DNA of 32,536 nucleotides from a phage. Location: assembly GCA_012925625.1 (NCBI GenBank), contig GCA_012925625.1_3625.1; one strand, given 5' to 3'. The translations under genes and the position numbers were made by a program. Shown here in pieces: positions 1 to 10,222 of this stretch. Under the pieces are notes generated by a model. That model saw only the letters and a program-made list of their open reading frames with translations. It was not told where the DNA came from and did no database searches. Position 1 is the stretch's first letter; each line of letters begins with the position of its first letter.

Positions 1-13
1 AGGAGAAAATATC

Positions 14-637
14 ATGACCACCGTTAACATTACTACAGGTTACAATTTATCTTTCGACGTGCTGACCGACGAACAAAAAGAAAAAGCTGTTGAAATGGTC
101 CGCGAAAGAGAAGAACACAGCGGGGATAACTTTTTTGCAGAAAGTGTAATTGAGTACTATAAAGAATATGTTTTTCCAGAGTATGGCCTTGAAGATACCG
201 AAATACATTGGTCCGGCTTTTGGTGTCAAGGCGACGGCGCGTCAATCAGTGCTGAAAACGTGGATTTAGAAAAATTCTTGCGTAAAGTAAAGGCCCTGAC
301 CAAGTTCCGATCAATTCGTCACTTGTTCGGCACAATGCACGATGGCGAGTTATCAGCCAGTGTTGAACGCGACAAGTACAGCCATTACAGCCATGAAAAC
401 ACTGTAAGCGGGTACATTGATACCACCTGGCTAGATCTGACCGCCAAACAAGAAAACAAAGTGGAAGACCTGGAAGAGCTGATCACCGAGACGGTACGGG
501 AGCTATCCCGCAAGGTTTACGTAGACTTGGAAGCGGCATATTTGGAGCAATTCACTACCGAAAACCTGATCGGCCTTATCGAGGCCAATGATTGGCGGTT
601 TGATGTGGATGAATATGGCGAGATGACTTTTTCATAA
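14..637 (+). CDS. hypothetical protein (207 aa), first gene of plus-strand early cluster
   Basis: Long ORF with RBS AGGAGA 8 nt upstream of ATG; no family recognised by eye. Confidence 0.6.
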   Translation: MTTVNITTGYNLSFDVLTDEQKEKAVEMVREREEHSGDNFFAESVIEYYKEYVFPEYGLEDTEIHWSGFWCQGDGASISAENVDLEKFLRKVKALTKFRSIRHLFGTMHDGELSASVERDKYSHYSHENTVSGYIDTTWLDLTAKQENKVEDLEELITETVRELSRKVYVDLEAAYLEQFTTENLIGLIEANDWRFDVDEYGEMTFS

Positions 638-645
638 ATAAAGTG

Positions 646-673
646 TTGCAATAAACTAAAAACCTGCTATATT
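646..673 (+). promoter_or_regulatory. sigma70-like promoter TTGCAA-N16-TATATT
   Basis: -35/-10 hexamers about 55 nt upstream of the 728 ATG. Confidence 0.4.
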
Positions 674-727
674 AAAACTCAAGGGGGCAAGACGTTTGCC
701 CCCACACAAAACAAAGAGGAAAACATC

Positions 728-1108
728 ATGAAAAACACTACTAAAGCTATTGACACCGTTATGTTTAACCTGGTTACCTTTCGCGAGGATATGAAAGATC
801 TTCCGCGTGAAACAGTGTGCGACCATATCGAAAACTATCGCAAACTAATCAAAGAGTTGCCTTTAAAACGTGATCAGTATGCGGCTAACGCCATGCTTAA
901 TGCCATGATCAAAAAGATGATCCAGTGTGATTTAACTCTAGCCTATGATTATGCGGGTGGTCGTTTTGCAGTATACAATCAGCCCGTGCCAGGTATGGGC
1001 ACCACCGAAGAATTGCACGCGTTAAATCTGAAACAAGATGTATGGGATAACATGCCCCGCGTGGTGGTGTGGGCAGAAAGCGGAAAGATTTACGGCGATA
1101 ATTTTTAA
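728..1108 (+). CDS. hypothetical protein (126 aa)
   Basis: ORF with RBS AAGAGGAAAA upstream of ATG. Confidence 0.6.
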   Translation: MKNTTKAIDTVMFNLVTFREDMKDLPRETVCDHIENYRKLIKELPLKRDQYAANAMLNAMIKKMIQCDLTLAYDYAGGRFAVYNQPVPGMGTTEELHALNLKQDVWDNMPRVVVWAESGKIYGDNF

Positions 1109-1117
1109 TCAGGTAAC

Positions 1118-1144
1118 AGGCGGCAAATATGCCGCCTTATTGTT
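1118..1144 (+). terminator. intrinsic terminator hairpin AGGCGGCA-aata-TGCCGCCT followed by TTATTGTT
   Basis: 8-bp GC-rich stem plus T-rich tail directly after the 1108 stop. Confidence 0.5.
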
Positions 1145-1172
1145 AAACAGAACTGCAAAAGAGGTACATAGA

Positions 1173-1544
1173 ATGGAATTTATTATTTTGGCCGTATTAG
1201 TTGCCTTGTTTAACGCCTGGATCGCTGGCAAGATGGGCAGATCCGCCTTTTTATGGTTTATTATATCTATTTTCCTGGGGGTGGTTGCAACTATTGTATT
1301 GGTTATCCTTGCAATTGTTGACAAGGGGAATAATAGAAAGGGTAAAGTATTTTCAGACCTGTACGACGCTCAAACGTTTGTCAACGCCTATTATAGTGAT
1401 CTTCCAGTCTCCCTACGTTGCAGCCTTGCACAACAGGTTTTCGATGAAGCTAAAACCAGAGATCACGCCCATGAGATTTGTTTAACTGAGGCGGATCGCC
1501 TATTTGAGAGGAATAGAAAATATGTGGGCCAGCCGTTTAAATAA
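1173..1544 (+). CDS. small membrane protein (123 aa, two predicted TM helices at N-terminus)
   Basis: Start moved to internal ATG at 1173 (RBS AAGAGGT 8 nt upstream); hydrophobic N-terminus MEFIILAVLVALFNAWIAG...FIISIFLGVVATIVLVILAIV. Confidence 0.55.
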   Translation: MEFIILAVLVALFNAWIAGKMGRSAFLWFIISIFLGVVATIVLVILAIVDKGNNRKGKVFSDLYDAQTFVNAYYSDLPVSLRCSLAQQVFDEAKTRDHAHEICLTEADRLFERNRKYVGQPFK

Positions 1545-1767
1545 TGCCACGTTAATTAACCCCTTCAGTGAAGATTTGAAGCCAGCCGCCTGGCGGGATG
1601 GATTCAATAAAGAAAGCTTTATTTTCAGGCCTGATCTTAAGGAATTTTATAACAATGGATCGAACAACGACAGAGATAATTTTTCTTATGATGTGTGTGG
1701 TGATAATACTCCTGGGGGCCATTGTAAACCACGTCACTACTACCAGGAGGAAAGGGGGAGACGATGA
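1522..1767 (+). CDS. hypothetical protein (81 aa)
   Basis: ORF in track; chosen start ATG 1522 with RBS GAGAGGAA; overlaps previous gene end. Confidence 0.45.
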   Translation: MWASRLNNATLINPFSEDLKPAAWRDGFNKESFIFRPDLKEFYNNGSNNDRDNFSYDVCGDNTPGGHCKPRHYYQEERGRR

Positions 1768-1883
1768 CACCCAAGGATAAGCCACGCACCGATAAGGCGC
1801 GCCGTGTTATGGTGTGGCTGGAGATCATCGCCCTTGAAATATTGTTAGGCGTAGGGATGTACTTTATCGCTGTAAGTAACTAA
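1764..1883 (+). CDS. small membrane peptide (39 aa), not in ORF track
   Basis: Strong RBS GGAGGAAAGGGGGAG; ATGA overlap with upstream stop; hydrophobic core VMVWLEIIALEILLGVGMYFIAV; stop immediately followed by terminator. Confidence 0.5.
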   Translation: MTPKDKPRTDKARRVMVWLEIIALEILLGVGMYFIAVSN

Positions 1884-1888
1884 GAACG

Positions 1889-1916
1889 GCCCCCGATCAT
1901 GGGGGCTTATCTTTTT
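1889..1916 (+). terminator. intrinsic terminator GCCCCC-gatcat-GGGGGC + TTATCTTTTT
   Basis: Perfect 6-bp GC stem and T-tract. Confidence 0.65.
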
Positions 1917-1939
1917 AAAAAAATTTTTCTCCCAGGGTG

Positions 1940-1967
1940 TTGCAATCCGGTCCGGAATGTGGATAAT
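1940..1967 (+). promoter_or_regulatory. sigma70-like promoter TTGCAA-N16-GATAAT (TGtGGATAAT)
   Basis: Hexamers upstream of the 2024 gene; same aatNtGGATAAT architecture as at 3102. Confidence 0.45.
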
Positions 1968-2023
1968 AACAATCAACGGGGAGCTAATCCCCACCAACAC
2001 AAAAACCAGAAAGGAGAAACAAA

Positions 2024-2224
2024 ATGAGCAACAATATCCGCGTTATTAACTTCAAAAAAGAAGAAAAAATTGCCGTGCTGATTGACGGTCAAGAAATCTT
2101 CAAGGGCGATTATGAAGATCATCAAACGGCGATTAGTATCACTCGCGTGATCGGTTACCATAATTTCTACCCCCAAGGCGCTGAGGCAGCAGTTAAACGA
2201 ATCAAAGAGATTGTAGGCCTGTAA
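2024..2224 (+). CDS. hypothetical protein (66 aa)
   Basis: ORF with RBS AAAGGAGAAA; flanked by promoter and hairpin. Confidence 0.6.
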   Translation: MSNNIRVINFKKEEKIAVLIDGQEIFKGDYEDHQTAISITRVIGYHNFYPQGAEAAVKRIKEIVGL

Positions 2225-2317
2225 AATTTATTTTTAGATGGCCTTGACTCCAGGGCCATCAATAAAGTAAATTTAAACCCTGTTAAAATACCACGCAGTT
2301 AACAAGGAGTGATAGAC

Positions 2318-2617
2318 ATGTTTATCCAGGCTAATAATCTTTATTTCTTTGATGGTCAGATCGTAGACGGTGTGGAAGTGGAGATCACCGGGTGCCCTGG
2401 CGGTCAGGCTATGACTTTTCGGAATAATGCCTTTGATGATTCTCATATCGTTATGAGAATGGAAGTTACGAAGCTGGACGACAAGAAAACACTTATTGAC
2501 TATTCTGTGAAAGATCATCCAGACTACCGCATGATCCATGGCGATTTGTGCATTGTTGACCGTGACAAGGTGGGCGGCATTGTGATCGCTATTGTGAACG
2601 ATGTTTTCTCAAACTAA
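2318..2617 (+). CDS. hypothetical protein (99 aa)
   Basis: ATG at 2318 preferred over the upstream GTG because RBS AAGGAG lies 9 nt upstream. Confidence 0.55.
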   Translation: MFIQANNLYFFDGQIVDGVEVEITGCPGGQAMTFRNNAFDDSHIVMRMEVTKLDDKKTLIDYSVKDHPDYRMIHGDLCIVDRDKVGGIVIAIVNDVFSN

Positions 2618-2634
2618 TTTCAGCAGGTGATTTT

Positions 2635-2985
2635 ATGAAAGTCAAACTATATTACCTTAATGAGCTTAACCCCCTTGCCCAGGTCCGCGCCCTGGCTAAT
2701 ACCTTGATTTGTGAGAAATCTGCATATTGTGTTGAGCTTAACGCCATGCGTGAACGTCTCAAAGGTGGTTACTTTGACATCCATGCTGCAATCAACGGCC
2801 TGAATATGGAATTTATACGCCTACGTAACAGCCGCCGGAATCTGGCAAGAATGGAACAAGATCCGGCCCACCTTCGTAAACTGGTTATTGAAAATCATCT
2901 GATGTTCAATGCCGAGGGTGATTATTACCATTTTAACCGCAAACGTTGGTACCGTGGCGGCAATACAGGCAAGAATGCAAAATAA
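2635..2985 (+). CDS. hypothetical protein (116 aa)
   Basis: ORF with RBS CAGGTGA; followed by two hairpins. Confidence 0.6.
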   Translation: MKVKLYYLNELNPLAQVRALANTLICEKSAYCVELNAMRERLKGGYFDIHAAINGLNMEFIRLRNSRRNLARMEQDPAHLRKLVIENHLMFNAEGDYYHFNRKRWYRGGNTGKNAK

Positions 2986-3020
2986 GGCCCTTAGCAGGGC
3001 CTGCAGCGATATAATCACAT

Positions 3021-3055
3021 AAAGGCTATGCGGTTGCATGGCCTTTATTATTTTA
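3021..3055 (+). terminator. intrinsic terminator (11-bp stem AAAGGCTATGC/GCATGGCCTTT, T-rich tail)
   Basis: Hairpin plus ATTATTTT; preceded by a second hairpin AGGCCC-ttagca-GGGCCT at 2985-3002. Confidence 0.6.
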
Positions 3056-3101
3056 GCGTTACAGCGGCCCCAAGGCGCTTAAAAATTTTTTAAAGAAGTA
3101 C

Positions 3102-3129
3102 TTGCATCAAGCCCTACAATATGGATAAT
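3102..3129 (+). promoter_or_regulatory. sigma70-like promoter TTGCAT-N16-GATAAT (TGGATAAT)
   Basis: Hexamers about 55 nt upstream of the 3185 ATG. Confidence 0.45.
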
Positions 3130-3184
3130 AGGACGTGTCAGGGGGAGGCCCCAATCATTAACCGGATAGATAGGAGTTAAAACC

Positions 3185-3469
3185 ATGGCTATTGTTACCG
3201 CTGGCGATGTAGTAGAAATGGAAGCAAAATACTTAAAAGCGGGTATGCATATCCTACGCAACGATCTTGAACTGGTCCTGACAATGGTTGACTATAACCC
3301 AGGGCAAGATTATCCAAGTGTTGACTACTTTTTTGAGTATGTTGATGAAGAGTTGAAAGAGGATGAGGCCTATTGCGGTGAGTTCTGCAACTTCTTTTGT
3401 CCTGATGAGGTTGTAAAGGTTATCTATCAACCTGGCGTAGCTTTCCCGCTGCACGCTATCAATAAATAA
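3185..3469 (+). CDS. hypothetical acidic protein (94 aa)
   Basis: ORF with RBS GATAGGAG. Confidence 0.6.
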   Translation: MAIVTAGDVVEMEAKYLKAGMHILRNDLELVLTMVDYNPGQDYPSVDYFFEYVDEELKEDEAYCGEFCNFFCPDEVVKVIYQPGVAFPLHAINK

Positions 3470-3531
3470 ACCTGGCGGGGCCGAAAAGGCCCCCGCCTGA
3501 AATTATGAAAAATAAAAAGAGGCAAACTATC

Positions 3532-3765
3532 ATGATGGAACAAATTAAACGCGCTGAGGCTATTAATGGCAATGTGATCTATTTTGTCAGCAAAAACGAA
3601 AAAGGCGTACCCTATGCGGCGGTAATAGTACAGCCTGACGGAGATTATTGGTGCACTGTGTACGGCGCTTATTCTTTTGGGCGTCCAGTGCATGATAAAA
3701 TTTTGAAAGTAGCGAACCCTACCGGGAAAAATATTACAGCAGAAAAATTTTTTGAAAATAGTTGA
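3532..3765 (+). CDS. hypothetical protein (77 aa)
   Basis: Start at ATGATG 3532 with RBS AAGAGG; the track ORF starts upstream without an RBS. Confidence 0.55.
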   Translation: MMEQIKRAEAINGNVIYFVSKNEKGVPYAAVIVQPDGDYWCTVYGAYSFGRPVHDKILKVANPTGKNITAEKFFENS

Positions 3766-3789
3766 CATGACCATATAAAACTGTAGTAT
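3762..3789 (+). promoter_or_regulatory. sigma70-like promoter TTGACA-N16-TAGTAT
   Basis: Consensus -35 and TAnnnT -10 upstream of the 3841 gene. Confidence 0.45.
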
Positions 3790-3840
3790 ATAAATAAAAG
3801 GGAGCAACAAGCCCCACCAACCACAAAGAGGATAAAAATC

Positions 3841-4020
3841 ATGGCTATTATTGCAAAGACCGAGATCGTAGGCTTAGATTCTATTCTCCTCGCATATGAG
3901 GAAGCTATAGAAATGTATGTGGTTTCCTATGGTGAGTATATCCGTGAATATGAATCTATTGATCTAGCTTTTGAATGTTATATTCGCCAGGTTAATAAAG
4001 CGTACGATGATTATCGTTAA
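3841..4020 (+). CDS. hypothetical protein (59 aa), not in ORF track
   Basis: RBS AAAGAGGATAAAAATC then ATG; uninterrupted 60 codons ending TAA at 4018-4020. Confidence 0.5.
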   Translation: MAIIAKTEIVGLDSILLAYEEAIEMYVVSYGEYIREYESIDLAFECYIRQVNKAYDDYR

Positions 4021-4111
4021 AATAGTTTGACAACAAACAACCATCTAACAAAGCATAATACATAAGGTGGTAGAATGATCCGCCACCCGGAACAAAGAAG
4101 AGGTAAACACC

Positions 4112-4357
4112 ATGAAAAGCAATAAAGGTTATAACGGTTACAAAAACAAAACTCATTGGAATGTAAGCCTTTGGATTAATAACGATGAGTCATTGTACCG
4201 GTTGGCCCAAGGCTTTATTAACTCTAATGCTAATCGTAATGATGCGGCGCGGGATATGATGCTTTTTCTGGAGCTAACCGGACAAGATAATACCCCGGAC
4301 GGCTTCAAGTACAGCACTACGGCGATCCGTGCCGCGATGGTTGGAATGAAACACTAA
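4112..4357 (+). CDS. hypothetical protein (81 aa)
   Basis: RBS AAGAAGAGGTAAACACC then ATG. Confidence 0.6.
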   Translation: MKSNKGYNGYKNKTHWNVSLWINNDESLYRLAQGFINSNANRNDAARDMMLFLELTGQDNTPDGFKYSTTAIRAAMVGMKH

Positions 4358-4434
4358 AAGCACATAGCTGCCTTACCCTGGGGCTGTGGTAGCGGCCCCA
4401 TGAATAAGGTTACTAACAGAAGAGAATAAACACC

Positions 4435-4539
4435 ATGAAACAGAAATTAATCGATGCAGTGATCTTGGTTATTGCCCTGGGTATTGGCCTGATTGCAACC
4501 ATGTCTAATATGATCTTGTCTTCCAACGGTATCGGGTGA
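4435..4539 (+). CDS. small membrane peptide (34 aa), not in ORF track
   Basis: RBS GAAGAG; hydrophobic core VILVIALGIGLIATM; sits between 4357 stop and 4549 start. Confidence 0.4.
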   Translation: MKQKLIDAVILVIALGIGLIATMSNMILSSNGIG

Positions 4540-4548
4540 GGTTGGCAA

Positions 4549-4764
4549 ATGATCACTAACAAAACAGGCAAAACAGAATTTTTACGCAACTTGCAGATCG
4601 GCAAGCCAGAGATCTGGCATTGCACTAAAACACCACGTGACGAAATGAAAGACTTCACCGCCACGCTGCAACGGGTAAAGATATCCATCACGCAGAAAAA
4701 GGCCTTGATAGTGGTAGAAGGTGAGATCCCTCAAACCGTTGTTATAGTTGAGCGTACAGCATAG
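4549..4764 (+). CDS. hypothetical protein (71 aa)
   Basis: RBS GGTGAGG then ATG. Confidence 0.55.
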   Translation: MITNKTGKTEFLRNLQIGKPEIWHCTKTPRDEMKDFTATLQRVKISITQKKALIVVEGEIPQTVVIVERTA

Positions 4765-4855
4765 TTTAATTTATAGCGATACCTGAAAATTAACCAATAA
4801 ATCATAAACAGGCGGTTACCGCCGCCTTAAACGTAGCAGAAAGAGGCTAGACACA

Positions 4856-5140
4856 ATGAAAAAGATGATCGCAGTAGTTGCCCTGGTTGTTGGACTTAAT
4901 GCGCCTGTAATGGCTAAAGAGCTGGCAAAAGAGGTTAATCTAACGGATATCCATGCCGTCAATCAAATCGGGGTTACTTATCGCTTATGCCTTGCCGCTA
5001 AAACTTTTAATGACGGCACAACGGAGTACTACGGATTCGAAGGTATCCGGTGCGGTGAGCTTGCTCGCGACCTTAAGGAAGATCCAGACCTGGAAGATCT
5101 GCCCATCACCGTAAACGGTAAAGCTTACGTAAACCGTTAA
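4856..5140 (+). CDS. small secreted/periplasmic protein (94 aa) with N-terminal signal peptide
   Basis: N-terminus MKKMIAVVALVVGLNAPVMA-KE has signal-peptide shape (basic n-region, hydrophobic core, AxA site); RBS AGAAAGAGG. Confidence 0.6.
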   Translation: MKKMIAVVALVVGLNAPVMAKELAKEVNLTDIHAVNQIGVTYRLCLAAKTFNDGTTEYYGFEGIRCGELARDLKEDPDLEDLPITVNGKAYVNR

Positions 5141-5142
5141 CC

Positions 5143-5277
5143 ATGAGAAAGATAATCATCACCTTGGGGATTGTGGCGGGATCGCTGGCGCTCTTTCCCC
5201 TTATGGTTAGGTATGTGCTGATCAGTATTGTCCTGGTAGTCAGTGATCTATTGGAAACGGTTGGCACCTTGTTTTAA
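5143..5277 (+). CDS. small membrane protein (44 aa), not in ORF track
   Basis: ATG 3 nt after upstream stop (coupled); two hydrophobic segments; weak RBS. Confidence 0.35.
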   Translation: MRKIIITLGIVAGSLALFPLMVRYVLISIVLVVSDLLETVGTLF

Positions 5278-5289
5278 AGAGCGGTAAAA

Positions 5290-5481
5290 ATGAATATCGA
5301 ACAAGTTAGAAAAGTATTAGCGGTACTGCGTTATCATAATCATAGAAAGGTCATAGACGATCCTGATTATGTTGATTCAAGCCTGGAAGGGGATACACTA
5401 CAAGCTATAAGTAACATGCAAGAATTGCTAAAGCGCATGACAGAGAAAAACCGACCGGACTACATAGGCGAAAAAATATAA
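5290..5481 (+). CDS. hypothetical protein (63 aa)
   Basis: RBS AAAGAGCGGTAAAA then ATG; followed by terminator. Confidence 0.55.
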   Translation: MNIEQVRKVLAVLRYHNHRKVIDDPDYVDSSLEGDTLQAISNMQELLKRMTEKNRPDYIGEKI

Positions 5482-5495
5482 TATTTATAAACTAC

Positions 5496-5527
5496 AAAAC
5501 AGGGCTTGCAATGGTCCTGTTTTTTGT
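5496..5527 (+). terminator. intrinsic terminator AAAACAGG...CCTGTTTT + TTTTTGTT
   Basis: Stem-loop with T-tract after the 5481 stop. Confidence 0.6.
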
Positions 5528-5609
5528 TATACTTGTTTCACGGCAGGCACCTGGCGACGGGTGGAGACAATCACCGGGCCTGCCTGTCATATAAGAACTA
5601 TAAAAACCG

Positions 5610-5638
5610 TTGACATCTGCCATGGGGGGAGGTAACAT
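5610..5638 (+). promoter_or_regulatory. sigma70-like promoter TTGACA-N17-TAACAT
   Basis: Consensus -35, weaker -10, upstream of the 5693 gene. Confidence 0.3.
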
Positions 5639-5692
5639 TTATCTTGAAGGGGCAAAGGTGCCCACACAACAACCAGGAGAGAGGAAAACACT

Positions 5693-5965
5693 ATGTCAAG
5701 CTGGATTAATCAAGAAGTCGAATCACGTTTTAATGCTATTTGGGATCTCATCGAAAAAGAGGACGGAACATCAAGCCCTTACCTCAATAATCTTGAATTC
5801 CATTTTGTGGAAGCGATGAACGCAGAACATGATCACGAAGGTGGTGCGGACGAGTTCGCTAAAGGGTATGGCTTCAACAATGCCAACGAAATGATCGAGG
5901 CAGTTGTACTCCAGGCTGAGGAAGATTATCAATTAAAAACGCTTGAATTCTGCCGCCGCAAGTAA
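5693..5965 (+). CDS. hypothetical acidic protein (90 aa)
   Basis: RBS AGGAGAGAGGAAAA; preferred over the overlapping 5610 ORF in another frame. Confidence 0.6.
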   Translation: MSSWINQEVESRFNAIWDLIEKEDGTSSPYLNNLEFHFVEAMNAEHDHEGGADEFAKGYGFNNANEMIEAVVLQAEEDYQLKTLEFCRRK

Positions 5966-6026
5966 TAAGATAATGACACGGGCCAAAAGGCCCCCTAAAC
6001 CAGAACCACATAAAAAGGTAAACATC

Positions 6027-6290
6027 ATGAAACGTCTTGATCAGCTCAAACTAGTTCAGTACATGGCCTACAAAGTTCTTGAAGTCCAAAAAGGTAGCAA
6101 AAAAGAGGTTTGCGAGAAAGCGTACAAGATCTTTACCCGTAAAAAAGATGATTGGATGTTACGCCAGACCAAAAAAGCCGATATCTTGGGGTACCTGGAA
6201 GAAGAGATCCGGCTTGAAGAACAAGAAGAGATCCGCCGTAGTGAAGCAGATTATCAGGCAGCTTGGGAAAACTGGATGAGTAACAAATAA
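6027..6290 (+). CDS. hypothetical Lys/Glu-rich protein (87 aa)
   Basis: Start at ATG 6027 with RBS AAAAGGT; the track ORF extends upstream without an RBS. Confidence 0.55.
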   Translation: MKRLDQLKLVQYMAYKVLEVQKGSKKEVCEKAYKIFTRKKDDWMLRQTKKADILGYLEEEIRLEEQEEIRRSEADYQAAWENWMSNK

Positions 6291-6357
6291 TACAACAAGT
6301 TACATGGTCAGGGGGCAATAAAGCCCCTTGATCGCATAAAAATTATGCCATCCTTGG

Positions 6358-6386
6358 TTGACAAGGATCGGCAGTTTTGCTATATT
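6358..6386 (+). promoter_or_regulatory. sigma70-like promoter TTGACA-N17-TATATT
   Basis: Near-consensus hexamers about 50 nt upstream of the 6435 ATG. Confidence 0.5.
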
Positions 6387-6434
6387 CTTTTTGAAGGGAA
6401 GTTGTAAGAAAATTAACTAAGAGGTAAAAACACC

Positions 6435-6854
6435 ATGAACATTAAATCTAATAATCCGGCATATAGCTTTGATAACGCTTTTTGTCACGGTCCGGCGGCG
6501 AAAGGATTCGAAATCGATGGTAAACTAATTATTGTCAATGTTGACGGGGAAGAGGTTGCAGTATATCCGGTGGCAGACGTTAAAAGCCGTTTGCAATGCC
6601 GCATGGATGTTACCGCCTACCAGCTTGATCCGGTCCGCATAGTTGCCCTGGTCCTGGAGGAAGAGATCAAAGCCATGCATCATAGCAACAAGTTTATCGG
6701 TGACGCGCAAGATAATATGAAGGTATGCCGCTATAAAGTTAATGAAGTGCTTAAAGAATATGGCTTCAAAGATCTGATGATCAAGCGTGATGAAAAATTC
6801 CGTTATCGTAACGACCTGGCAAATCGAATCTATGAAATATACGAATCATTATAA
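6435..6854 (+). CDS. hypothetical protein (139 aa)
   Basis: RBS AAGAGGTAAAAACACC then ATG; last plus-strand gene before the ORF-poor region. Confidence 0.65.
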   Translation: MNIKSNNPAYSFDNAFCHGPAAKGFEIDGKLIIVNVDGEEVAVYPVADVKSRLQCRMDVTAYQLDPVRIVALVLEEEIKAMHHSNKFIGDAQDNMKVCRYKVNEVLKEYGFKDLMIKRDEKFRYRNDLANRIYEIYESL

Positions 6855-6872
6855 TTTCTTAACTAAACTATC

Positions 6873-6900
6873 AGGGGCTTTAAAAGGCCCCTTTCTTTTT
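6873..6900 (+). terminator. intrinsic terminator GGGGCTTT-aa-AAGGCCCC + TTTCTTTTTG
   Basis: 8-bp stem with T-tract; ends the plus-strand transcription unit. Confidence 0.65.
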
Positions 6901-7517
6901 GTCTGTATTTCTCCTACCACAAACGGCCCTACCTGGCAAATGGAATAATTGACGAGCCATCAATCCCACACACTGTACAAATATACATGTAAAATAGCTA
7001 TTGCATAACCTTTCATTGTGTGGTAGCGGTGCTATTTTTTACCCGTTTTCCTTCCAAAGTTGCACGTAATGCAGTTATTGCACAAAATTTAACCTGATGC
7101 ACATCTTCAATACCTTGTCAACAACTAAAAATCTTTATAAGTCATACACTTACATAACCACAAAAGCGTGTTCTACGCGAAAAATCGAGTATAACTATAG
7201 CCGCCAGATCTCAGAATTCACGTACGCACGCCATTCTATAGCCTGCAAAGTATTTATTCCAACCACAGAATAACGGAATAGTCAATACCTGCATAAAATA
7301 ATTATTCGTGTAAACTGCATAACATAAATCAGCTCAGGTGTCAACATTTTTCGTAAACAGTCCGAAATTATCACGATGAGTTATCATAAACAGAGAAATC
7401 TTTAGTCGTCTAATGTTTACTGTACATTACTATACTGACTGGAATCATTAGATGACTAAGAGAAAGATAAGAAATAATTAATAATGTAATTATTTTACCT
7501 GTAACAATAAGGCAACT

Positions 7518-7750
7518 ATGCAAACGAATGGCATGGCGCGACGGAGTCGCGACATAATATAAAAGCAGTAACCATCACCCCCGTGATAGTTTGTCTGCAA
7601 ACTATTAATCAGATCATAGTTGCCTTGTATTTAGTTAATCATGACATAACAAGCAAGGCAACTATAGATCTTCTAATAGTTGCCCTGCTTTTATATTATG
7701 TCATATATTATTATCTTGTTAATTGTTTTCATGCAAACGAATGGCATGGC
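7518..7750. repeat. two copies of a 20-mer direct repeat ATGCAAACGAATGGCATGGC (7518-7537 and 7731-7750) bracketing an inverted-repeat cluster
   Basis: Exact 20/20 identity read directly from the sequence. Confidence 0.7.
7586..7684. repeat. cluster of ATAGTTGCC/GGCAACTAT inverted repeats, with further copies of the 9-mer at 7511-7519 and 7676-7684
   Basis: Palindrome ATAGTTTG-tctg-CAAACTAT (7586-7605); 12-bp inverted repeat ATAGTTGCCTTG (7616-7627) / CAAGGCAACTAT (7654-7665). Confidence 0.65.
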
Positions 7751-7851
7751 TTATCATATCTGCGTGAACAGTCTATGCATAAACAGTGAGATATGGAATA
7801 GTAACAATTGTTATTGTGTGCCAGATAAGTTTTGTCATGAAGTGCTTAAGG

Positions 7852-7879
7852 TGTCAAAAGTGACAATTTTGTCAGACAA
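7852..7879. promoter_or_regulatory. paired TGTCA/TGACA palindromes (TGTCA-aaag-TGACA and TTGTC-a-GACAA), operator-like
   Basis: Two perfect short palindromes 4 nt apart; further TTGTCA copies at 7833 and 7895. Confidence 0.35.
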
Positions 7880-8171
7880 GTTTTTCTCCTCTTTGTCAAG
7901 TGCTGCATGAAAAATTTACAATCTGGTATGGTAGCATTTTTGCGGCCCCGTTTACATTCAGTGATGTATGTATAAGCCTTGTTGTGTGGGCGTTTAGACG
8001 TCTAGACGGTTGGAAGTCCACAGGTCAATATCTAATCTATCGGCTGCTAACTATATCCCACACAAATAGTAAGAAATATAATTGTTATGCGTGTAAACAG
8101 TAACTCATGGTATCAATCCCTGTATGTATCGCCAGTGGTGCGCATAATAGGTATTATGTTAAATTGCCCGT

Positions 8172-8206
8172 AATGATAACTATTCTCACAATGATAGGTA
8201 TTCTCA
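8172..8206. repeat. iteron-like tandem repeat AATGATA(AC/GG)TATTCTCA x2, with related ATAGGTATT copies at 8148 and 8222
   Basis: Two 17-mers with 2 mismatches at an 18-bp period. Confidence 0.55.
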
Positions 8207-8401
8207 TTCACCCCCGCAAGATAGGTTGCAAATGTTGTGCCACTGTGTGAACGGCCTGGCCTATTAATTTGCCTCACTGCCTCGATATTTGAGAATTATT
8301 ATAAGAATGAGAAGTATTCCCATTTCGTCCGCCTGGCAGCACTCCAGTCGCTACCGCTCATGACAGGGCAGAACTGGGTCCATTCAGATATTTCTGGCTG
8401 A

Positions 8402-8634
8402 CTCTTCAGGCCTGTGTGGGAAAAGCCAACCTCTCCGGCGGCGGGGAGGGGTTTGTCAGGAAAATTGCAGGTCAATTAAAAAATTTACGGGGTATATGAA
8501 GCGCTCTTCAGATAAGGCATGTATTATGGGATGAAACCCTCTTCAGGCAATGATATTTGTGGGTGTGATATTTGCTGGAAAGCCAGATATGACGGGACTC
8601 CCGGCGGGGCAGGGGTAGTACAGACAGGGAAAAT
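8402..8634. repeat. duplicated G-rich element: copy A 8402-8464, copy B 8540-8634
   Basis: Both copies run CTTCAGG...GTGGG...AAAGCC...CTCC(C)GGCGG(C)GGGG(C)AGGGG...CAGG(G)AAAAT in the same order. Confidence 0.55.
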
Positions 8635-9312
8635 ATGGAGGATGTGGTTGGGTAAATTGATCAGGCAGGTAGAGTATGGAATATGTTACAGGTATGTTAA
8701 ATAGGGAGGCTGAATATCTGTAGGATTTGTGTGTAAAATCAAAGACTTAAGTGGTGTTGTGGTATTTTCTATAAATAATTCAAGTTTAATAGGTAATATT
8801 TGTCTCTATCCGCTTTGTGTGGTAAACAAATTCAGATGGTGTTGGTTTACAAGTGTATACATAATATACAAATTAAAGATACAAGAAACCCCCCCTCCCC
8901 CTTCGGCTACCATTCACCTTTTCCTCTGACTGGTACTTAAACACTTATTCAGACTCTTCAGGTTATCACCCATATATCATATGGCAGTGACTGGTGTCCT
9001 CCGGCCCCTCTTTCGTCACCCGTCCGCTTCGCCATGCTAATGCCATAGCCAATGGTTCGGTTGTTCACCCTGTTCACTCAGGTGTATCTCCATACCCCTT
9101 CAAACCGAAGAGAACAGAAAACCCGAATTACTCGGTAAAAGAAAAGAGAAGAACTTAATTTTATCAGGATAGGCAAGAATGTCAAGGCATGACTGCTCAC
9201 TAAACAAGCAAACAGTCATGTGTGGGAGGTAAGTGATTGTGGTGGTGGGAAATTTAGTTGAAAGATGTGTTATAGGTGCTTCCAGCACTTTAGCCGGGCA
9301 GCTAATTGTGTG

Positions 9313-9528
9313 TCAGTCCAGCGGTTCATCCTCTACTTCACTGAAATCAATGTTCATGGTCTCTTCCCAACCATCGATCTCAGCACAAGAGTGGAGTTCT
9401 TTAGGGTTTACTCCCAAAGCCTCAGCAACAGAGTCTATATTTAACACCTCTGGCAGGTATGTTTCATCGAATTCAAGGTAAATCAGGCCACGAGTGTTGT
9501 CAGCTCCACCAAATATTTCTATCTTCAT
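9313..9528 (-). CDS. hypothetical acidic protein (71 aa), last gene of the minus-strand unit
   Basis: ORF with RBS GAGGAG upstream of ATG at 9528. Confidence 0.55.
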   Translation of the reverse strand: MKIEIFGGADNTRGLIYLEFDETYLPEVLNIDSVAEALGVNPKELHSCAEIDGWEETMNIDFSEVEDEPLD

Positions 9529-9649
9529 GAAATCTCCTCTGGAAATGAGAGTGTGAACAGGGTTTTATACGTTCCAATGCACTGGAATTATACACGTTTG
9601 CCTCTTCAGGCCATGCTTTAGCATGAGGAACCTGTGTGGGCTCGGTGCT

Positions 9650-9862
9650 TCATAGTCTGCCACCTCTGAACTCTTCGTGCTCAGGCATAATGGAGAACCA
9701 GATGTCTACGATGTCTTCCCACGTTAGGTCATCAGCCTCAGGATCTACCTGGAGCGAAGATGGAGAATCTTCAGAATCGAAGTTTTCCTCTTTCACTGGC
9801 TCAGACAATGGACATATGGTCACTCCTTCGGATGTCTCTTCAGGTGCATGCGTGTTGATCAT
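9650..9862 (-). CDS. hypothetical acidic protein (70 aa)
   Basis: ORF in track; ATGA overlap with the upstream small ORF. Confidence 0.5.
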   Translation of the reverse strand: MINTHAPEETSEGVTICPLSEPVKEENFDSEDSPSSLQVDPEADDLTWEDIVDIWFSIMPEHEEFRGGRL

Positions 9863-9948
9863 GTTCCACCCGTGAGTATTCCGGCAACAGCCGCTATGGA
9901 CGTAATGATCATCAGGATCACTACTAAAACTTCGGACAATGTTCTCAT
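9859..9948 (-). CDS. small hydrophobic peptide (29 aa), not in ORF track
   Basis: MRTLSEVLVVILMIITSIAAVAGILTGGT; directly downstream of the 9981-10009 promoter; weak RBS. Confidence 0.3.
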   Translation of the reverse strand: MRTLSEVLVVILMIITSIAAVAGILTGGT

Positions 9949-9980
9949 TGTGTATTCCATATTCTACAAACTATGTGTGG

Positions 9981-10009
9981 ATACTATCACTGGAGCGGTA
10001 ATGTGTCAA
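9981..10009 (-). promoter_or_regulatory. sigma70-like promoter (minus strand) TTGACA-N17-TAGTAT
   Basis: Reverse complement of 10004-10009 is TTGACA and of 9981-9986 is TAGTAT. Confidence 0.45.
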
Positions 10010-10170
10010 TAGAAACGCCGCGAGGGTTTGGTTAAAATCCGAGCGTATGGTGATTTGGGTCAAAACGGACGTGCGTTCTCGCTACGCTCGAAATATGGAG
10101 TTGTTTGTAGGAAGCTCTTAAACTCTCTGTAACGAGATTATCTGTCCAAGGTATGCAATCGTGCACCAGA

Positions 10171-10197
10171 TAAAGAAAAGGACGCCACAGAGCGTCC
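10171..10197 (-). terminator. intrinsic terminator (minus strand) GGACGC-loop-GCGTCC + TTTTCTTTA
   Basis: Hairpin and T-tract on the minus strand immediately after the 10223 stop. Confidence 0.55.
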
Positions 10198-10222
10198 TAG
10201 GTGTCTTAAATTTGATATTTTG

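What the first reader, a model, noticed from the sequence alone, without database searches (positions are those of the whole stretch)
14..6900. Early-gene cluster with one promoter and terminator per small gene
About 20 short plus-strand ORFs (34-207 aa) are each preceded by a Shine-Dalgarno site. Many are flanked by sigma70-like promoters (for example TTGCAA-N16-GATAAT at 1940 and 3102, TTGACA-N17-TATATT at 6358) and hairpin terminators (1889, 3021, 5496, 6873). This is the classic layout of host-takeover genes transcribed by unmodified host RNA polymerase. It includes a membrane protein (1173), a signal-peptide protein (4856) and several tiny membrane peptides, none with a recognisable family.
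Basis: partly seen in the sequence, partly recalled or inferred. Interest (0 to 1): 0.45.

Follow-up and report, generated by a model that had tools for sequence, protein, structure and literature searches.

The report
Modular accessory-gene cassette array in rV5-like phage
This is a known block of 20 small genes of unknown function in an rV5-like E. coli phage, built from repeated promoter–hairpin–ribosome-site cassettes at whose edges genes are gained, lost and swapped between phages; that it is switched on early in infection is likely but unproven.

Summary
The window is a Vequintavirus, 95% identical to phage FFH2. Region 14-6900 corresponds to rV5 genes 185-164. All 20 ORFs are real, conserved, Shine-Dalgarno-led genes of unknown function. 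"One promoter and terminator per gene" is overstated: I find about 10 sigma70-type promoters and 4-5 T-tailed terminators, which implies about 11 short transcription units. Seven of these sites were already published for rV5 in 2013. The promoters look functional: their hexamers are almost invariant across relatives (4 of 96 columns vary, against 29% of other intergenic columns). The part that appears to be new is a stereotyped cassette. It runs -35/-10, then a GC hairpin starting about 11 nt after the -10, then an A/C-rich spacer, SD and ATG, with about 52 nt from -10 to ATG. The window has 6 against 0.15 expected by chance, all on the coding strand. The same design recurs in phi92/phAPEC8-like phages and in the jumbo phage G17. 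Gene gain, loss and replacement between relatives break at these cassettes (29 of 32 breakpoints). This resembles the PeSL cassettes of T4-type phages but has a different anatomy. Early timing and host-takeover function remain inferences, and g1 and g12 gave confident models with no known fold.

The parts
14..637 (+). g1 (207 aa, net charge -24; rV5 gp185). Invariant SGFxxQGDGA / Y-H motifs; function unknown.
   Evidence: phrog_5162 E 2e-89; 47 homologues including jumbo phages; alignment A1; model pLDDT 87 with no PDB fold match. Its promoter and leader hairpin lie just upstream of the window.
646..673 (+). Promoter of g2: TTGCAA-N16-(TGc)TATATT
   Evidence: PWM 12.4; hexamers invariant in 13 distinct relatives.
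683..703 (+). Leader hairpin of g2, GGGGGCAAgacgtTTGCCCCC, starting 9 nt after the -10
   Evidence: -15.9 kcal/mol, z -3.5; compensatory variant in L006 and flipped copy in L016.
728..1108 (+). g2 (126 aa; rV5 gp184)
   Evidence: phrog_7352 E 3e-69; SD -6.0.
1118..1137 (+). Intercistronic hairpin / weak terminator (rV5 t184), tail TTATTGTT
   Evidence: z -3.5; loop flipped in most relatives.
1173..1544 (+). g3 (123 aa, two TM segments; rV5 gp183)
   Evidence: phrog_13090; hydropathy.
1522..1767 (+). g4 (81 aa), overlaps g3 by 23 nt
   Evidence: phrog_12060 E 4e-50.
1764..1883 (+). g5 (39 aa TM peptide; rV5 gp181), start overlaps the g4 stop
   Evidence: phrog_13629; hydropathy.
1888..1907 (+). 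Intrinsic terminator after g5 (rV5 t181), followed by an A/T tract
   Evidence: every variant folds at -14 to -17.5 kcal/mol.
1940..1967 (+). Promoter of g6: TTGCAA-N16-GATAAT
   Evidence: hexamers conserved.
1978..1992 (+). Leader hairpin of g6, GGGGAgctaaTCCCC
   Evidence: z -3.8; variant stems and loops still fold.
2024..2224 (+). g6 (66 aa; rV5 gp179)
   Evidence: phrog_12347.
2224..2286 (+). About 60-nt repeated intergenic element. Its hairpin GGCCTtgactccaGGGCC (2240-2257) carries the -35 TTGACT in the loop, with -10 TAAATT (promoter 2244-2273, for g7).
   Evidence: Two further copies at 92-100% identity in other intergenic regions of the array in relatives; PWM 11.4.
2318..2617 (+). g7 (99 aa)
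   Evidence: phrog_7366.
2635..2985 (+). g8 (116 aa, basic). Absent from SYGMH1, BP9, A13b, ECML-10 and typing phage 5.
   Evidence: phrog_8549; breakpoints 2610-2631 | 2975.
2985..3002 (+). Hairpin overlapping the g8 stop codon
3019..3048 (+). Intrinsic terminator (rV5 t177), followed by an A/T tract
   Evidence: the + strand RNA is more stable than its complement (-18.1 vs -13.8); loop flipped in FFH2.
3102..3129 (+). Promoter of g9: TTGCAT-N16-GATAAT
   Evidence: PWM 8.0.
3141..3152 (+). Leader hairpin of g9, GGGGgaggCCCC
   Evidence: Eleven distinct variants (window plus relatives) all fold; GGGGG/CCCCC becomes GGAGG/CCTCC in L013; the window copy is weak (z -1.1).
3185..3469 (+). g9 (94 aa, net charge -12; rV5 gp176)
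   Evidence: phrog_12610.
3474..3497 (+). Intercistronic hairpin GGCGGGGCCgaaaaGGCCCCCGCC, no T tail
   Evidence: -19.7 kcal/mol, z -3.4.
3532..3765 (+). g10 (77 aa; rV5 gp175). Also present in phi92 (gp247) and in tuntematon, at a different position there.
   Evidence: phrog_9227.
3762..3789 (+). Promoter of g11 (rV5 P174): TTGACA-N16-TAGTAT; the -35 overlaps the g10 stop codon
3800..3815 (+). Leader hairpin of g11, GGGAGCaacaaGCCCC
   Evidence: z -2.5; relatives have a perfect GGGGC/GCCCC stem.
3841..4020 (+). g11 (59 aa; rV5 gp174). Replaced in SYGMH1; present in Justusliebigvirus ESCO8.
4027..4059 (+). Degenerate promoter of g12: TTGACA-N21-CATAAT. A 4-nt deletion in inoa, MaxTheCat and A13b restores N17.
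4066..4087 (+). Leader hairpin of g12, GGTGG...CCACC
   Evidence: z -2.1; variants.
4112..4357 (+). g12 (81 aa, DUF7249). The most widely shared cassette; absent from nomine and typing phage 5.
4380..4399 (+). Intercistronic hairpin before g13
   Evidence: -17 kcal/mol, z -2.7; + strand -14.6 vs complement -8.5.
4435..4539 (+). g13 (34 aa TM peptide)
   Evidence: phrog_14631.
4549..4764 (+). g14 (71 aa; rV5 gp172)
   Evidence: phrog_5988.
4810..4827 (+). Hairpin before g15, AGGCGGttaccgCCGCCT. BP9 and A13b carry its exact reverse complement.
   Evidence: z -2.8.
4856..5140 (+). g15 (94 aa, signal-peptide-like N-terminus; rV5 gp171). Absent from SYGMH1.
5143..5277 (+). g16 (44 aa TM peptide; rV5 gp170). 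Absent from Murica, JLBYU08 and C12.
   Evidence: phrog_16005; breakpoints 5151 | 5287.
5290..5481 (+). g17 (63 aa; rV5 gp169). Absent from SYGMH1.
5496..5523 (+). Intrinsic terminator. Its loop carries TTGCAA, the -35 of promoter candidate 5506-5533 (TTGCAA-N16-(TGt)TATACT). Relatives have extra genes inserted just before it.
   Evidence: + strand -13.5 vs complement -6.9; insertion points 5482-5522.
5610..5638 (+). Promoter of g18 (rV5 P168): TTGACA-N17-TAACAT
   Evidence: PWM 12.9.
5650..5663 (+). Leader hairpin of g18, GGGCAaaggTGCCC
   Evidence: the window copy is weak (z -1.3).
5693..5965 (+). g18 (90 aa, net charge -12; rV5 gp167)
   Evidence: phrog_7287.
5943..5971 (+). Promoter of g19: TTGAAT-N17-TAAGAT; the -35 lies inside the end of g18
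   Evidence: PWM 10.1.
5980..5993 (+). Leader hairpin of g19, GGGCCaaaaGGCCC
   Evidence: z -2.6.
6003..6030 (+). A/C-rich spacer + SD + ATG of g19. It appears as a direct repeat on both sides of an extra 72-aa gene in typing phage 5 and L014.
6027..6290 (+). g19 (87 aa; rV5 gp165). The 'DNA translocase' label in some records is unsupported.
   Evidence: phrog_11701; no Pfam or NCBIfam hit.
6311..6327 (+). Hairpin GGGGGCaataaaGCCCC: left joint of the g20 cassette
   Evidence: z -6.1; breakpoint at 6329 in five genomes.
6358..6386 (+). Promoter of g20 (rV5 P164): TTGACA-N17-(TGc)TATATT. Best match in the region; it has no leader hairpin.
   Evidence: 11 of 12, PWM 16.5.
6435..6854 (+). g20 (139 aa; rV5 gp164). 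Absent from 5 of 15 relatives; present in Phapecoctavirus.
   Evidence: phrog_12277.
6873..6892 (+). Terminal intrinsic terminator (rV5 t164): right joint of the g20 cassette and end of the array
   Evidence: relatives without g20 carry a single hybrid hairpin.

Best explanation
The region is the distal two-thirds of a hyperplastic accessory-gene array of a Vequintavirus (rV5 genes 185-164). It holds 20 small, non-virion genes of unknown function, grouped into about 11 short transcription units. Most units start with the same regulatory cassette. The cassette is an optional terminator hairpin with an A/T tract, then a sigma70 -35/-10 pair, then a GC-rich hairpin that begins about 11 nt after the -10 (about 3-5 nt from the predicted transcript start), then an unstructured A/C-rich spacer, an AGAGG-type SD and the ATG. 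The distance from -10 to ATG is about 52-55 nt.

Proposed mechanism:
(1) Unmodified host RNA polymerase starts at each cassette. This rests on sequence and conservation and is likely, but activity was not measured.
(2) The hairpin sits at the 5' end of the mRNA. There it most likely protects the message from 5'-end-dependent decay and insulates each gene from its neighbours, while the A/C-rich spacer keeps the SD accessible. This step is inference.
(3) T-tailed hairpins end some of the units. This is shown as sequence features only.
(4) Because the same short sequences recur before many genes (GC hairpins and the spacer-SD-ATG segment), homologous recombination between them deletes, inserts and swaps whole genes without breaking their expression. 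This is shown by comparative breakpoints.

The logic matches the PeSL cassettes of T4-type phages, with a different cassette anatomy. Early, pre-replicative expression is the most likely timing but is inferred.
For: IDENTITY. 95% identity to FFH2 over the full 7 kb, with 292 related records.

GENES. All 20 have PHROG families and SD sites.

PROMOTERS. They are enriched in intergenic DNA (5.3/kb against 0.74/kb). Only 4 of 96 hexamer columns vary across relatives, against 246 of 849 other intergenic columns (p = 3e-9), while the spacers vary freely at 23%.

COMPOSITE CASSETTE. The window + strand has 6 (one of them a spurious call at 6263), against 0.15 in shuffles. The opposite strand has 0. 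The 23-kb minus-strand gene block has 1, against 1.1 expected. The homologous arrays of FFH2, tuntematon, SKA64, ESCO8, phi92 and the jumbo phage G17 have 5-10 each, against 0.45 or fewer expected.

GEOMETRY. Over 41 cassettes, the distance from the -10 end to the hairpin has a median of 11 nt (IQR 10-13), and from -10 to the ATG a median of 52 nt (IQR 50-55).

HAIRPINS. 10 of 12 were matched or beaten by at most 7 of 200 shuffles. Nearly all orthologous variants still fold, with compensatory changes and four exact hairpin flips. A G.U wobble is conserved in the recurrent GGGCGGCA/TGCCGCTC copies.

RECOMBINATION. 29 of 32 homology breakpoints lie in intergenic DNA or within 15 nt of a gene end. 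That zone covers 30% of the region (p = 2e-12). g20 is flanked by two similar hairpins, and the five genomes lacking g20 carry one hybrid hairpin. The losses of g12 and g15 join at the SD-ATG motif. An extra gene in typing phage 5 is flanked by direct repeats of the leader. Gene order differs in Phapecoctavirus.

PeSL PRECEDENT. PMC2839356 and PMC4122927.

NON-STRUCTURAL. No virion mass-spectrometry evidence for gp164-185.
Against: There is no experimental TSS, timing or half-life data for any member, so the '5'-terminal' position of the hairpin depends on predicted start sites.

Strong sigma70 promoters also occur in the nucleotide-metabolism block, so the promoter type does not prove early timing.

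The strand-asymmetry test for an RNA-level function only leans the right way: 12 hairpins against 4, Wilcoxon p = 0.08. The leader hairpins themselves are nearly symmetric.

Two window leader hairpins are weak on their own (z -1.1 and -1.3).

Two promoters (2244, 6358) have no leader hairpin, and four hairpins in the same ATG-anchored position (before g3, g10, g13 and g15) have no promoter. The cassette is therefore a tendency, not a rule.

About 11 independent indel events is a modest sample. Breakpoints would also be expected to favour gene boundaries simply because disruptive events are removed by selection.
Confidence: 0.66

Rival explanations
1. One reading: each small gene is its own early transcription unit, with one promoter and one terminator, read by unmodified host RNA polymerase, and the products take over the host.
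For: The sigma70-type promoters are conserved and terminators are enriched. The proteins are small, often acidic or membrane-bound, and non-virion. The extended array contains T7 gp1.1-like and T4 Tk.4-like genes.
Against: Only about 10 promoters and 4-5 T-tailed terminators serve 20 genes, and several genes overlap or abut as operons. No timing data were found. No protein function is known, and there are no PADLOC, Pfam or NCBIfam hits. Many of these genes are dispensable, being absent from close relatives. That fits accessory or niche functions better than core takeover functions.
Confidence: 0.3
2. The GC palindromes just downstream of the promoters act at the DNA level as operators for a phage-encoded or host dimeric repressor that shuts the whole array off together. 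They would sit at about +4 to +24, like lacO.
For: The position relative to the -10 is fixed. One palindrome type, GGCGGGAA-N3-4-TTCCCGCC, recurs in three phage lineages. The leader hairpins are nearly strand-symmetric.
Against: Stem sequences differ widely between cassettes in one genome (GGGGGCAA, GGGGA, GGTGG, GGGCA, GGGCC), and only the pairing is kept. Orthologues show compensatory changes with variable loop length. A G.T wobble is conserved in the commonest Stephanstirmvirinae copy, which would be an A.C mismatch on the other strand. No DNA-binding regulator was identified in the array.
Confidence: 0.1
3. The hairpins work mainly as transcription stops. They would act as attenuators for read-through from upstream units, as terminators for antisense transcription coming from the convergent gene block (hairpin plus the T-rich complement of the -10 box), or both. 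That is promoter-terminator coupling.
For: The scan reports minus-strand terminator-like sites exactly at the leader hairpins: 703, 1998, 3815 and 4827. PeSL stem-loops were shown to terminate (PMC2839356). A 2026 preprint reports widespread promoter-terminator coupling. At 5496 and 2240 the -35 lies inside a hairpin loop.
Against: Most leader hairpins are followed on the + strand by an A/C-rich sequence, not a U tract. Only 3-4 have a T-rich tail on the minus strand. This explanation does not predict the tight spacing to the -10, although that spacing would follow automatically if the -10 doubles as the tail. This rival is compatible with the main explanation as a second role.
Confidence: 0.2
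4. The promoter-like sequences are incidental. The block would be expressed as the tail of the long leftward unit proposed for rV5 (genes 10-1-238-164), and the hairpins would be generic mRNA-processing or 3'-stabilising elements.
For: The rV5 authors proposed one unit covering these genes. The region-wide promoter count is at chance.
Against: The hexamers are far more conserved than the surrounding intergenic DNA, while the spacers are not. The composite cassette is about 40-fold over shuffles and strand-specific. Four T-tailed terminators lie inside the block.
Confidence: 0.07

Closest known systems
PeSL (promoter-early stem-loop) cassettes of T4-type phages (Arbiol 2010, PMC2839356; Comeau 2014, PMC4122927)
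   Same: Both are small repeated regulatory cassettes in a hyperplastic region of small ORFans. Both have a strong sigma70 promoter with an A/T-rich upstream tract, a GGGG...CCCC stem-loop, an SD and an ATG. Indels and replacements between close relatives break at the cassettes, with crossovers between the -10 and the ATG. Three or four intergenic regions here (1888/1940, 3019/3102, 5496/5506-5610, 6311/6358) have the PeSL order, with the stem-loop before the promoter.
   Different: The phage lineage is different (Vequintavirinae, with parallels in Stephanstirmvirinae and Asteriusvirus). The recurrent stem-loop here lies downstream of the -10, in the transcribed leader, at a fixed 10-13 nt, and it lacks a T tail. 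Copies within one Vequintavirus genome are less alike than published PeSLs, although they are highly alike in phi92- and phAPEC8-type phages. Mini-circles were not tested.
rV5 genes 164-185 with predicted promoters P164, P168, P174, P185 and terminators t164, t177, t181, t184 (Kropinski 2013, PMC3606486)
   Same: It is the same locus, at roughly 93-95% identity. Seven of the regulatory sites I list were already published, and Murica (KT001917) annotates an RBS for every gene plus the terminators.
   Different: Those descriptions treat the sites as isolated promoters and terminators inside one long unit. The leader hairpins, the fixed geometry, the repeats and the breakpoint association are not described.
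5'-terminal stem-loop mRNA stabilisers such as the ompA 5' UTR hairpin (Emory, Bouvet and Belasco 1992; cited from my own knowledge, not checked here)
   Same: A stable hairpin lies within a few nucleotides of the 5' end of the message and is followed by an unstructured leader and an RBS.
   Different: The TSS positions here are predicted, not measured. No decay data exist. Here the element is multiplied before many genes and shared across phage lineages.
T7 class I early region with RNase III sites between genes (cited from my own knowledge)
   Same: A run of small early genes is read by host polymerase, with hairpins between the genes.
   Different: T7 uses a few clustered promoters, one terminator and long RNase III substrates. 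The stems here are 4-9 bp, too short for RNase III, and nearly every second gene has its own promoter.
Promoter-coupled terminators (Fletcher et al. 2026 preprint, 10.64898/2026.08.19.745784)
   Same: Hairpins and promoter elements overlap. Examples are the -35 inside the loop of terminator 5496-5523 and of hairpin 2240-2257, and a -10 box that reads as a T tail on the opposite strand.
   Different: That work is on bacterial chromosomes, and I read only its abstract and outline. It does not address gene shuffling.

Membership tests
PeSL cassettes (T4-type phages) | Strong sigma70-like promoter with an A/T-rich tract upstream | tested here: met
   About 10 promoters. Hexamers are conserved (4 of 96 variable columns against 29% of other intergenic columns). 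A/T tracts lie before 1940 and 3102.
PeSL cassettes (T4-type phages) | [quoted passage not shown] | tested here: inconclusive
   This order holds for 4 of 10 promoters (1888/1940, 3019/3102, 5496/5506-5610, 6311/6358). In 7 of 10 the recurrent stem-loop lies downstream of the -10 instead. Terminator activity was not measured.
PeSL cassettes (T4-type phages) | Many copies clustered in a hyperplastic region next to ORFans that differ between close relatives | tested here: met
   About 11 independent indel or replacement events in 15 relatives over 6.9 kb. The minus-strand block has 1 cassette in 23 kb.
PeSL cassettes (T4-type phages) | Indel junctions fall inside the cassettes, with short homology at both ends | tested here: met
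   29 of 32 breakpoints fall in the boundary zone (p = 2e-12). Junction evidence: a hybrid hairpin at g20, SD-ATG joints at g12 and g15, and direct leader repeats around the extra gene.
PeSL cassettes (T4-type phages) | Formation of excised mini-circles during infection | not testable with these tools
   This needs inverse PCR on infected cells.
PeSL cassettes (T4-type phages) | Host genome is a T4-like phage | tested here: not met
   The window is a Vequintavirus. I therefore file it as an analogue, not a member.
Vequintavirus rV5 gene block 164-185 | Collinear high nucleotide identity and the same gene set | tested here: met
   100% coverage at 95.0% identity to FFH2. Protein lengths match rV5 gp164-185.
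Sigma70-dependent promoters | -35 and -10 hexamers at 16-18 nt spacing, more than chance, in a position to drive a gene | tested here: met
   The region-wide count is at chance. The sites are enriched 7-fold in intergenic DNA, sit at a fixed distance from the ATG, and are conserved. Activity was not tested.
Intrinsic (Rho-independent) terminators | GC-rich hairpin followed directly by a T run | tested here: met
   Sites at 1888, 3019, 5496 and 6873, with 1118 weak. 18 found against 7.0 expected over both strands. Four are listed for rV5.
Phage early (pre-replicative, host-polymerase) genes | Transcribed in the first minutes without phage protein synthesis | not testable with these tools
   No transcriptome for this phage group was found.
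Phage early (pre-replicative, host-polymerase) genes | Products absent from the virion | tested here: met
   In the rV5 table, gp164-185 carry no mass-spectrometry evidence, while gp133, gp137 and gp152 do. This evidence comes from the literature, for a 93-95% identical relative.
5'-terminal stabilising stem-loops | Hairpin within about 4 unpaired nucleotides of the transcript 5' end | tested here: inconclusive
   The hairpin starts a median of 11 nt after the -10, about 3-5 nt from a start predicted 6-8 nt after the -10. No TSS has been measured.
DUF7249 (PF23907), for g12 only | Score above the Pfam gathering threshold | tested here: met
   48.3 bits against a cut-off of 27, E 2e-12.
Rfam RNA families | Match to any curated covariance model | tested here: not met
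   No hit in window 1-10400 at E <= 0.1. No hit in six related loci at gathering scores.

The most novel reading that the evidence does not exclude
The leader hairpin is not just a generic stabiliser. It would be a specific, conserved cis element, with consensus GGCGGGRAA-N3-4-TTCCCGCC / GGGCGGCAATRGTGCCGCYC placed 10-13 nt after the -10. It is shared by three unrelated lineages of large coliphages: rV5-like, phi92/phAPEC8-like and 121Q/G17-like jumbo phages. On this reading a common host or phage factor recognises it, for example an RNA-binding regulator that times early-gene shut-off or a structure-specific recombination protein. That would define a cross-lineage 'expression-and-exchange' cassette system for accessory genes.
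Probability: 0.18. Interest if true: 0.7.

Novelty: new variant of a known kind. Interest (0 to 1): 0.4.

Why it matters
As written, the finding describes an already annotated block of hypothetical genes with published promoters and terminators.

What the tools add is that these sites form a repeated cassette with a fixed geometry. It is strand-specific and about 40-fold over chance. It marks the points where genes are gained, lost and exchanged, and it recurs in at least three lineages of large E. coli phages used in therapy and defence-system research, including the BASEL collection.

If confirmed, three things would follow:
- It would extend the PeSL idea of regulatory cassettes doubling as recombination linkers beyond T4-like phages.
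- It would give a simple rule for locating the accessory (anti-defence or host-interaction) gene pool in such genomes.
- It would provide a compact, portable promoter-leader module for expressing small genes.

It also names concrete proteins worth screening: g1, with an invariant motif and no known fold, and the very widespread g12/DUF7249.

Tried and rejected

RNA FAMILIES AND tRNAs. None were found.

TIMING. Three literature searches found no transcriptome for this phage group. The rV5 'late' motif TGGTAAAATA has no exact match in the window. Within the array there are two one-mismatch hits on the + strand: 2281, in the intergenic region before g7, and 6518, inside g20. This is uninformative.

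HAIRPIN ANALYSIS. Column-wise pair counting on MAFFT alignments was spoiled by indels (2 compensatory, 34 one-sided, 57 'broken' cells), so I relied on folding each variant separately. In one search several stem coordinates were mis-entered. Only the promoter, spacer and SD categories from that call are used.

REJECTED MECHANISMS.
- RNase III sites: rejected because the stems are only 4-9 bp.
- Lambda-N-type boxB sites: considered because of GAAAA loops, but rejected because loops vary and flip and no N-like protein is present.
- Integron-like attC cassettes: considered, but rejected because the cassettes carry their own promoters and there is no integrase.

COLLECTION SCANS. An IMG/VR scan with g9 returned only 3 loci. 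The 19-mer hairpin scan showed that the single-copy hits outside Stephanstirmvirinae are ordinary terminators in an unrelated contig family, not cassettes.

Full report
IDENTITY AND CONTEXT. The first 7 kb of the window match 292 phage records. The best match is Escherichia phage FFH2, at 100% coverage and 95.0% identity. All close hits are Vequintavirus (rV5-like myophages). By gene order and protein length, the plus-strand ORFs correspond to rV5 genes 185 down to 164. The rV5 authors placed these genes at the far end of a proposed long transcription unit, '10-1-238-164', next to a box they labelled 'non-coding'. From about 10.2 kb the rest of the window is a convergent minus-strand block. 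It carries thymidylate synthase, class I and class III ribonucleotide reductases, PhoH, a ClpP-like protease, a ribosome hibernation factor and about 40 small genes. The array is cut by the window edge: relatives carry at least nine more small genes of the same kind upstream, along with g1's own promoter.

CHECKING THE OBSERVATION. All 20 ORFs are real conserved genes. Each hits its own PHROG family (E from 8e-23 to 6e-96), always of unknown function. SD sites are genuine: mean duplex energy with the anti-SD is -6.2 kcal/mol, against -2.1 for 136 other ATGs in the region. The membrane and signal-peptide calls hold up. The promoters are a different matter. The region-wide count of promoter-like sites equals chance (18 against 17.7). 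With a weight matrix the signal is confined to intergenic DNA, at 5.3 per kb against 0.74 per kb in coding DNA. I count about 10 candidate promoters and four strong plus one weak T-tailed terminators for 20 genes. Several genes overlap or abut as small operons. 'One promoter and terminator per gene' is therefore an overstatement; about 11 short units is closer. Seven of these sites were already published for rV5: P164, P168, P174, t164, t177, t181 and t184. Murica's record annotates an RBS for every gene plus the terminators.

ARE THE PROMOTERS REAL? I aligned 14 intergenic regions from up to 15 relatives. Only 4 of 96 columns under the -35 and -10 hexamers vary, against 246 of 849 other intergenic columns (Fisher p = 3e-9). 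The spacers between the hexamers vary at 23% and hairpin loops at 43%. That pattern is the expected signature of working sigma70 promoters. One promoter, before g12, has a 21-nt spacer in the window; a 4-nt deletion in three relatives restores 17 nt. Sigma70-consensus promoters are not unique to this array, however. Eight strong ones precede genes in the minus-strand block, and rV5 Table S4 lists them across the genome.

THE CASSETTE. Lining the upstream regions up on the ATG shows a repeated layout. Eleven of the 13 long intergenic regions carry a GC-rich hairpin at about -48 to -28, then an A/C-rich spacer, then an AGAGG-type SD. In seven of them a -35/-10 pair sits just upstream, so the hairpin falls at the start of the transcript.

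I defined the composite as a promoter with PWM >= 8, a GC hairpin starting 6-18 nt after the -10, and an SD plus start codon 12-45 nt after the hairpin. Counted that way:
- Array, plus strand: 6, one of them a spurious call at 6263, against 0.15 in shuffles.
- Array, opposite strand: 0.
- Minus-strand gene block (23 kb): 1, against 1.1 expected.
- Homologous arrays of FFH2, tuntematon, SKA64, ESCO8, phi92 and the jumbo phage G17: 5-10 each, against 0.45 or fewer expected.

With the search range opened to 2-30 nt, the hairpin starts a median of 11 nt after the -10 (IQR 10-13). The distance from -10 to ATG has a median of 52 nt (IQR 50-55) over 41 cassettes. In the minus block the promoter leaders are about 30 nt and lack the hairpin.

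In phi92- and phAPEC8-type phages and in G17 the hairpin is itself a repeated sequence: GGGCGGCAATRGTGCCGCYC or GGCGGGRAA-N3-4-TTCCCGCC. The second form also precedes g1 in Vequintavirus. A collection-wide scan with the 19-mer found multi-copy hits only in Stephanstirmvirinae-type contigs, always in the full cassette context. The single copies elsewhere are ordinary terminators in an unrelated contig family. No Rfam family matches.

ARE THE HAIRPINS SELECTED AS STRUCTURES? Ten of twelve were matched or beaten by at most 7 of 200 dinucleotide shuffles, with z from -2.1 to -6.1. The other two are weak. When each orthologous variant is folded separately, a hairpin survives in almost every relative. 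This holds despite stem changes (GGGGG/CCCCC to GGAGG/CCTCC; GGGGGCAA/TTGCCCCC to GGCGGGCG/TGCCCGCC), loop replacement and length changes. Four hairpins occur in some relatives as the exact reverse complement: the g2 leader, the hairpin at 1118, the loop of terminator 3019, and the g15 hairpin. Pairing is kept while loop sequence is not. A test for strand asymmetry, based on G.U wobbles that stabilise only the sense RNA, leans toward the plus strand (12 against 4 hairpins, p = 0.08). It is clear for the T-tailed terminators but not for the leader hairpins. The common Stephanstirmvirinae copy keeps a G.T wobble, which would be an A.C mismatch on the other strand.

GENE FLUX. I compared the window with 15 Vequintavirus loci. 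29 of 32 distinct homology breakpoints lie in intergenic DNA or within 15 nt of a gene end. That zone covers 30% of the region (binomial p = 2e-12), and the breakpoints reflect about 11 independent events. The junction sequences are informative:
- g20 and its promoter lie between two similar hairpins, tcAGGGGGCaataaaGCCCCTT and tcAGGGGCTTtaaaAGGCCCCTTT. The five genomes without g20 carry a single hybrid hairpin.
- Loss of g12 (nomine, typing phage 5) joins at the repeated TAAACACCATGAAA of two SD-ATG segments.
- Loss of g15 joins at the start codons.
- An extra 72-aa gene in typing phage 5 is flanked by direct repeats of GAACCACAnAAAGAGG...ATGA.

A 60-nt intergenic element (2224-2286) occurs three times in the array of relatives at 92-100% identity. 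Single genes or small groups (g10; g11-g12; g13-g14; g15-g17; g20) occur at 72-92% DNA identity in Phapecoctavirus, Justusliebigvirus and jumbo phages, in a different order.

This is the behaviour described for PeSL cassettes of T4-type phages. Those are strong sigma70 promoters with GGGG...CCCC stem-loops in hyperplastic regions, with crossovers mapped between the -10 and the ATG. The anatomy differs: in PeSLs the stem-loop precedes the promoter, whereas here the recurrent one follows it. Three or four intergenic regions here also have the PeSL order. I found no report of such cassettes outside T4-like phages.

MECHANISM.
- Shown: the genes, the SD sites, the conserved promoter hexamers, the hairpins, the fixed geometry and the breakpoint association.
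- Inferred: host RNA polymerase initiates 6-8 nt after each -10, so the hairpin begins 3-5 nt into the mRNA.

A stable 5'-terminal hairpin with few unpaired 5' nucleotides is a known way to protect E. coli mRNAs from 5'-end-dependent decay (my own knowledge of the ompA work, not checked here). The G-poor spacer would keep the SD open. Secondary roles are plausible: attenuating read-through, or terminating antisense transcripts, since the scan calls minus-strand terminators at 703, 1998, 3815 and 4827 (preprint). A DNA-operator reading is less likely, because stems differ between cassettes and covary.

Early timing is favoured for three reasons: the promoter type, the absence of the products from virions, and the T7 gp1.1-, T4 Tk.4- and RB49/phi1-like genes in the extended array. 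No timing data exist in what I could search.

PROTEINS. g1 belongs to a phage-only family (26-98% identity) found in rV5-like and ~350-kb jumbo phages. It has an invariant SGFxxQGDGA motif, and its model is confident (pLDDT 87) with no recognisable fold. g12 (DUF7249) has 352 clusters across very different phages. It models as a small helical bundle with only weak similarities. g20's family is narrow. Nothing supports or excludes 'host takeover'. The frequent absence of individual genes from close relatives points to dispensable accessory functions.

VERDICT. The finding as written is a correct but overstated description of an already annotated locus. The added value is the repeated promoter-leader-hairpin cassette, its link to gene exchange, and its recurrence in three lineages of large coliphages. 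I rate it a new variant of a known kind (PeSL-like), of moderate interest.

Noticed in passing
window 6900-9560 (with small ORFs up to about 10200): A gene-free stretch of about 2.6 kb, the 'non-coding' box of rV5. GC falls to 0.356 at 7-8 kb. It holds an exact 20-nt direct repeat (7518 and 7731), a perfect 18-nt inverted repeat (7551-7568 / 7685-7702), and an ATAGTTGCC motif four times in both orientations. Promoter-like sites are enriched (18 against 9.8), including a strong minus-strand promoter at 9185-9158 with no ORF behind it. There are no tRNA or Rfam hits. A similar gene-free stretch follows the g20 homologue in Phapecoctavirus. In phi92 the array is followed by the right terminal repeat, and several GenBank records start or end inside this stretch. 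It could be an origin, a packaging or terminus region, or non-coding RNA genes.
   Followed up: partly
window 683-703, 1118-1137, 3019-3048, 4810-4827: In some relatives, whole hairpins are replaced by their exact reverse complement: the stems are kept and the loop is complemented. This is the pattern of small inversions at palindromes, and it suggests frequent recombination or template switching at these sites.
   Followed up: partly
window 5482-5692: This is the longest intergenic region. The -35 of a strong promoter candidate (5506-5533) lies in the loop of terminator 5496-5523. A structured segment follows at 5542-5588 (-23.9 kcal/mol, z -2.2), and then a second promoter at 5610. It could be a small RNA or a regulated leader. 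Relatives insert extra genes exactly here.
   Followed up: partly
window 14-637: The g1 family has invariant SGFxxQGDGA, Y125/H127 and R162/Y169/L172 residues and a net charge of -24. It gives a confident alpha/beta model with no PDB relative and is shared with ~350-kb jumbo coliphages. It looks like an enzyme or a specific binder of unknown type.
   Followed up: partly
window 14809-15129 (-), 21602-22651 (-), 23127-23915 (-): The opposing block encodes a ribosome hibernation factor homologue (PF02482, E 4e-15), a ClpP-like protease and PhoH. In rV5, three small proteins of this block (gp133, gp137, gp152) have virion mass-spectrometry evidence although they sit among non-structural genes.
   Followed up: no
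GenBank records MG065644, MG065690, MG065677, MG065635 and others: 23 records named 'Campylobacter phage' (the two opened, A13b and C12, are flagged UNVERIFIED; host given as C. jejuni) match this E. coli Vequintavirus region; the four listed in the output are 92-95% identical to it. The host label is probably wrong.
   Followed up: no
window, both strands: The rV5 'late promoter' motif TGGTAAAATA has 10 one-mismatch matches against 3.8 expected (1 of 100 shuffles reaches 10). Seven are on the minus strand, the coding strand of the nucleotide-metabolism block.
   Followed up: no
L011 (phage G17), L008-L010, L021: In G17 the cassette promoters are nearly identical copies (gtacTTGCAAactatgtttaaaagcgTATAAT). 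In phi92- and phAPEC8-type phages the segment between the -10 and the hairpin is also conserved (gtatcacAT / cacGT). The repeat unit there is therefore about 70 nt, much more uniform than in Vequintavirus.
   Followed up: partly
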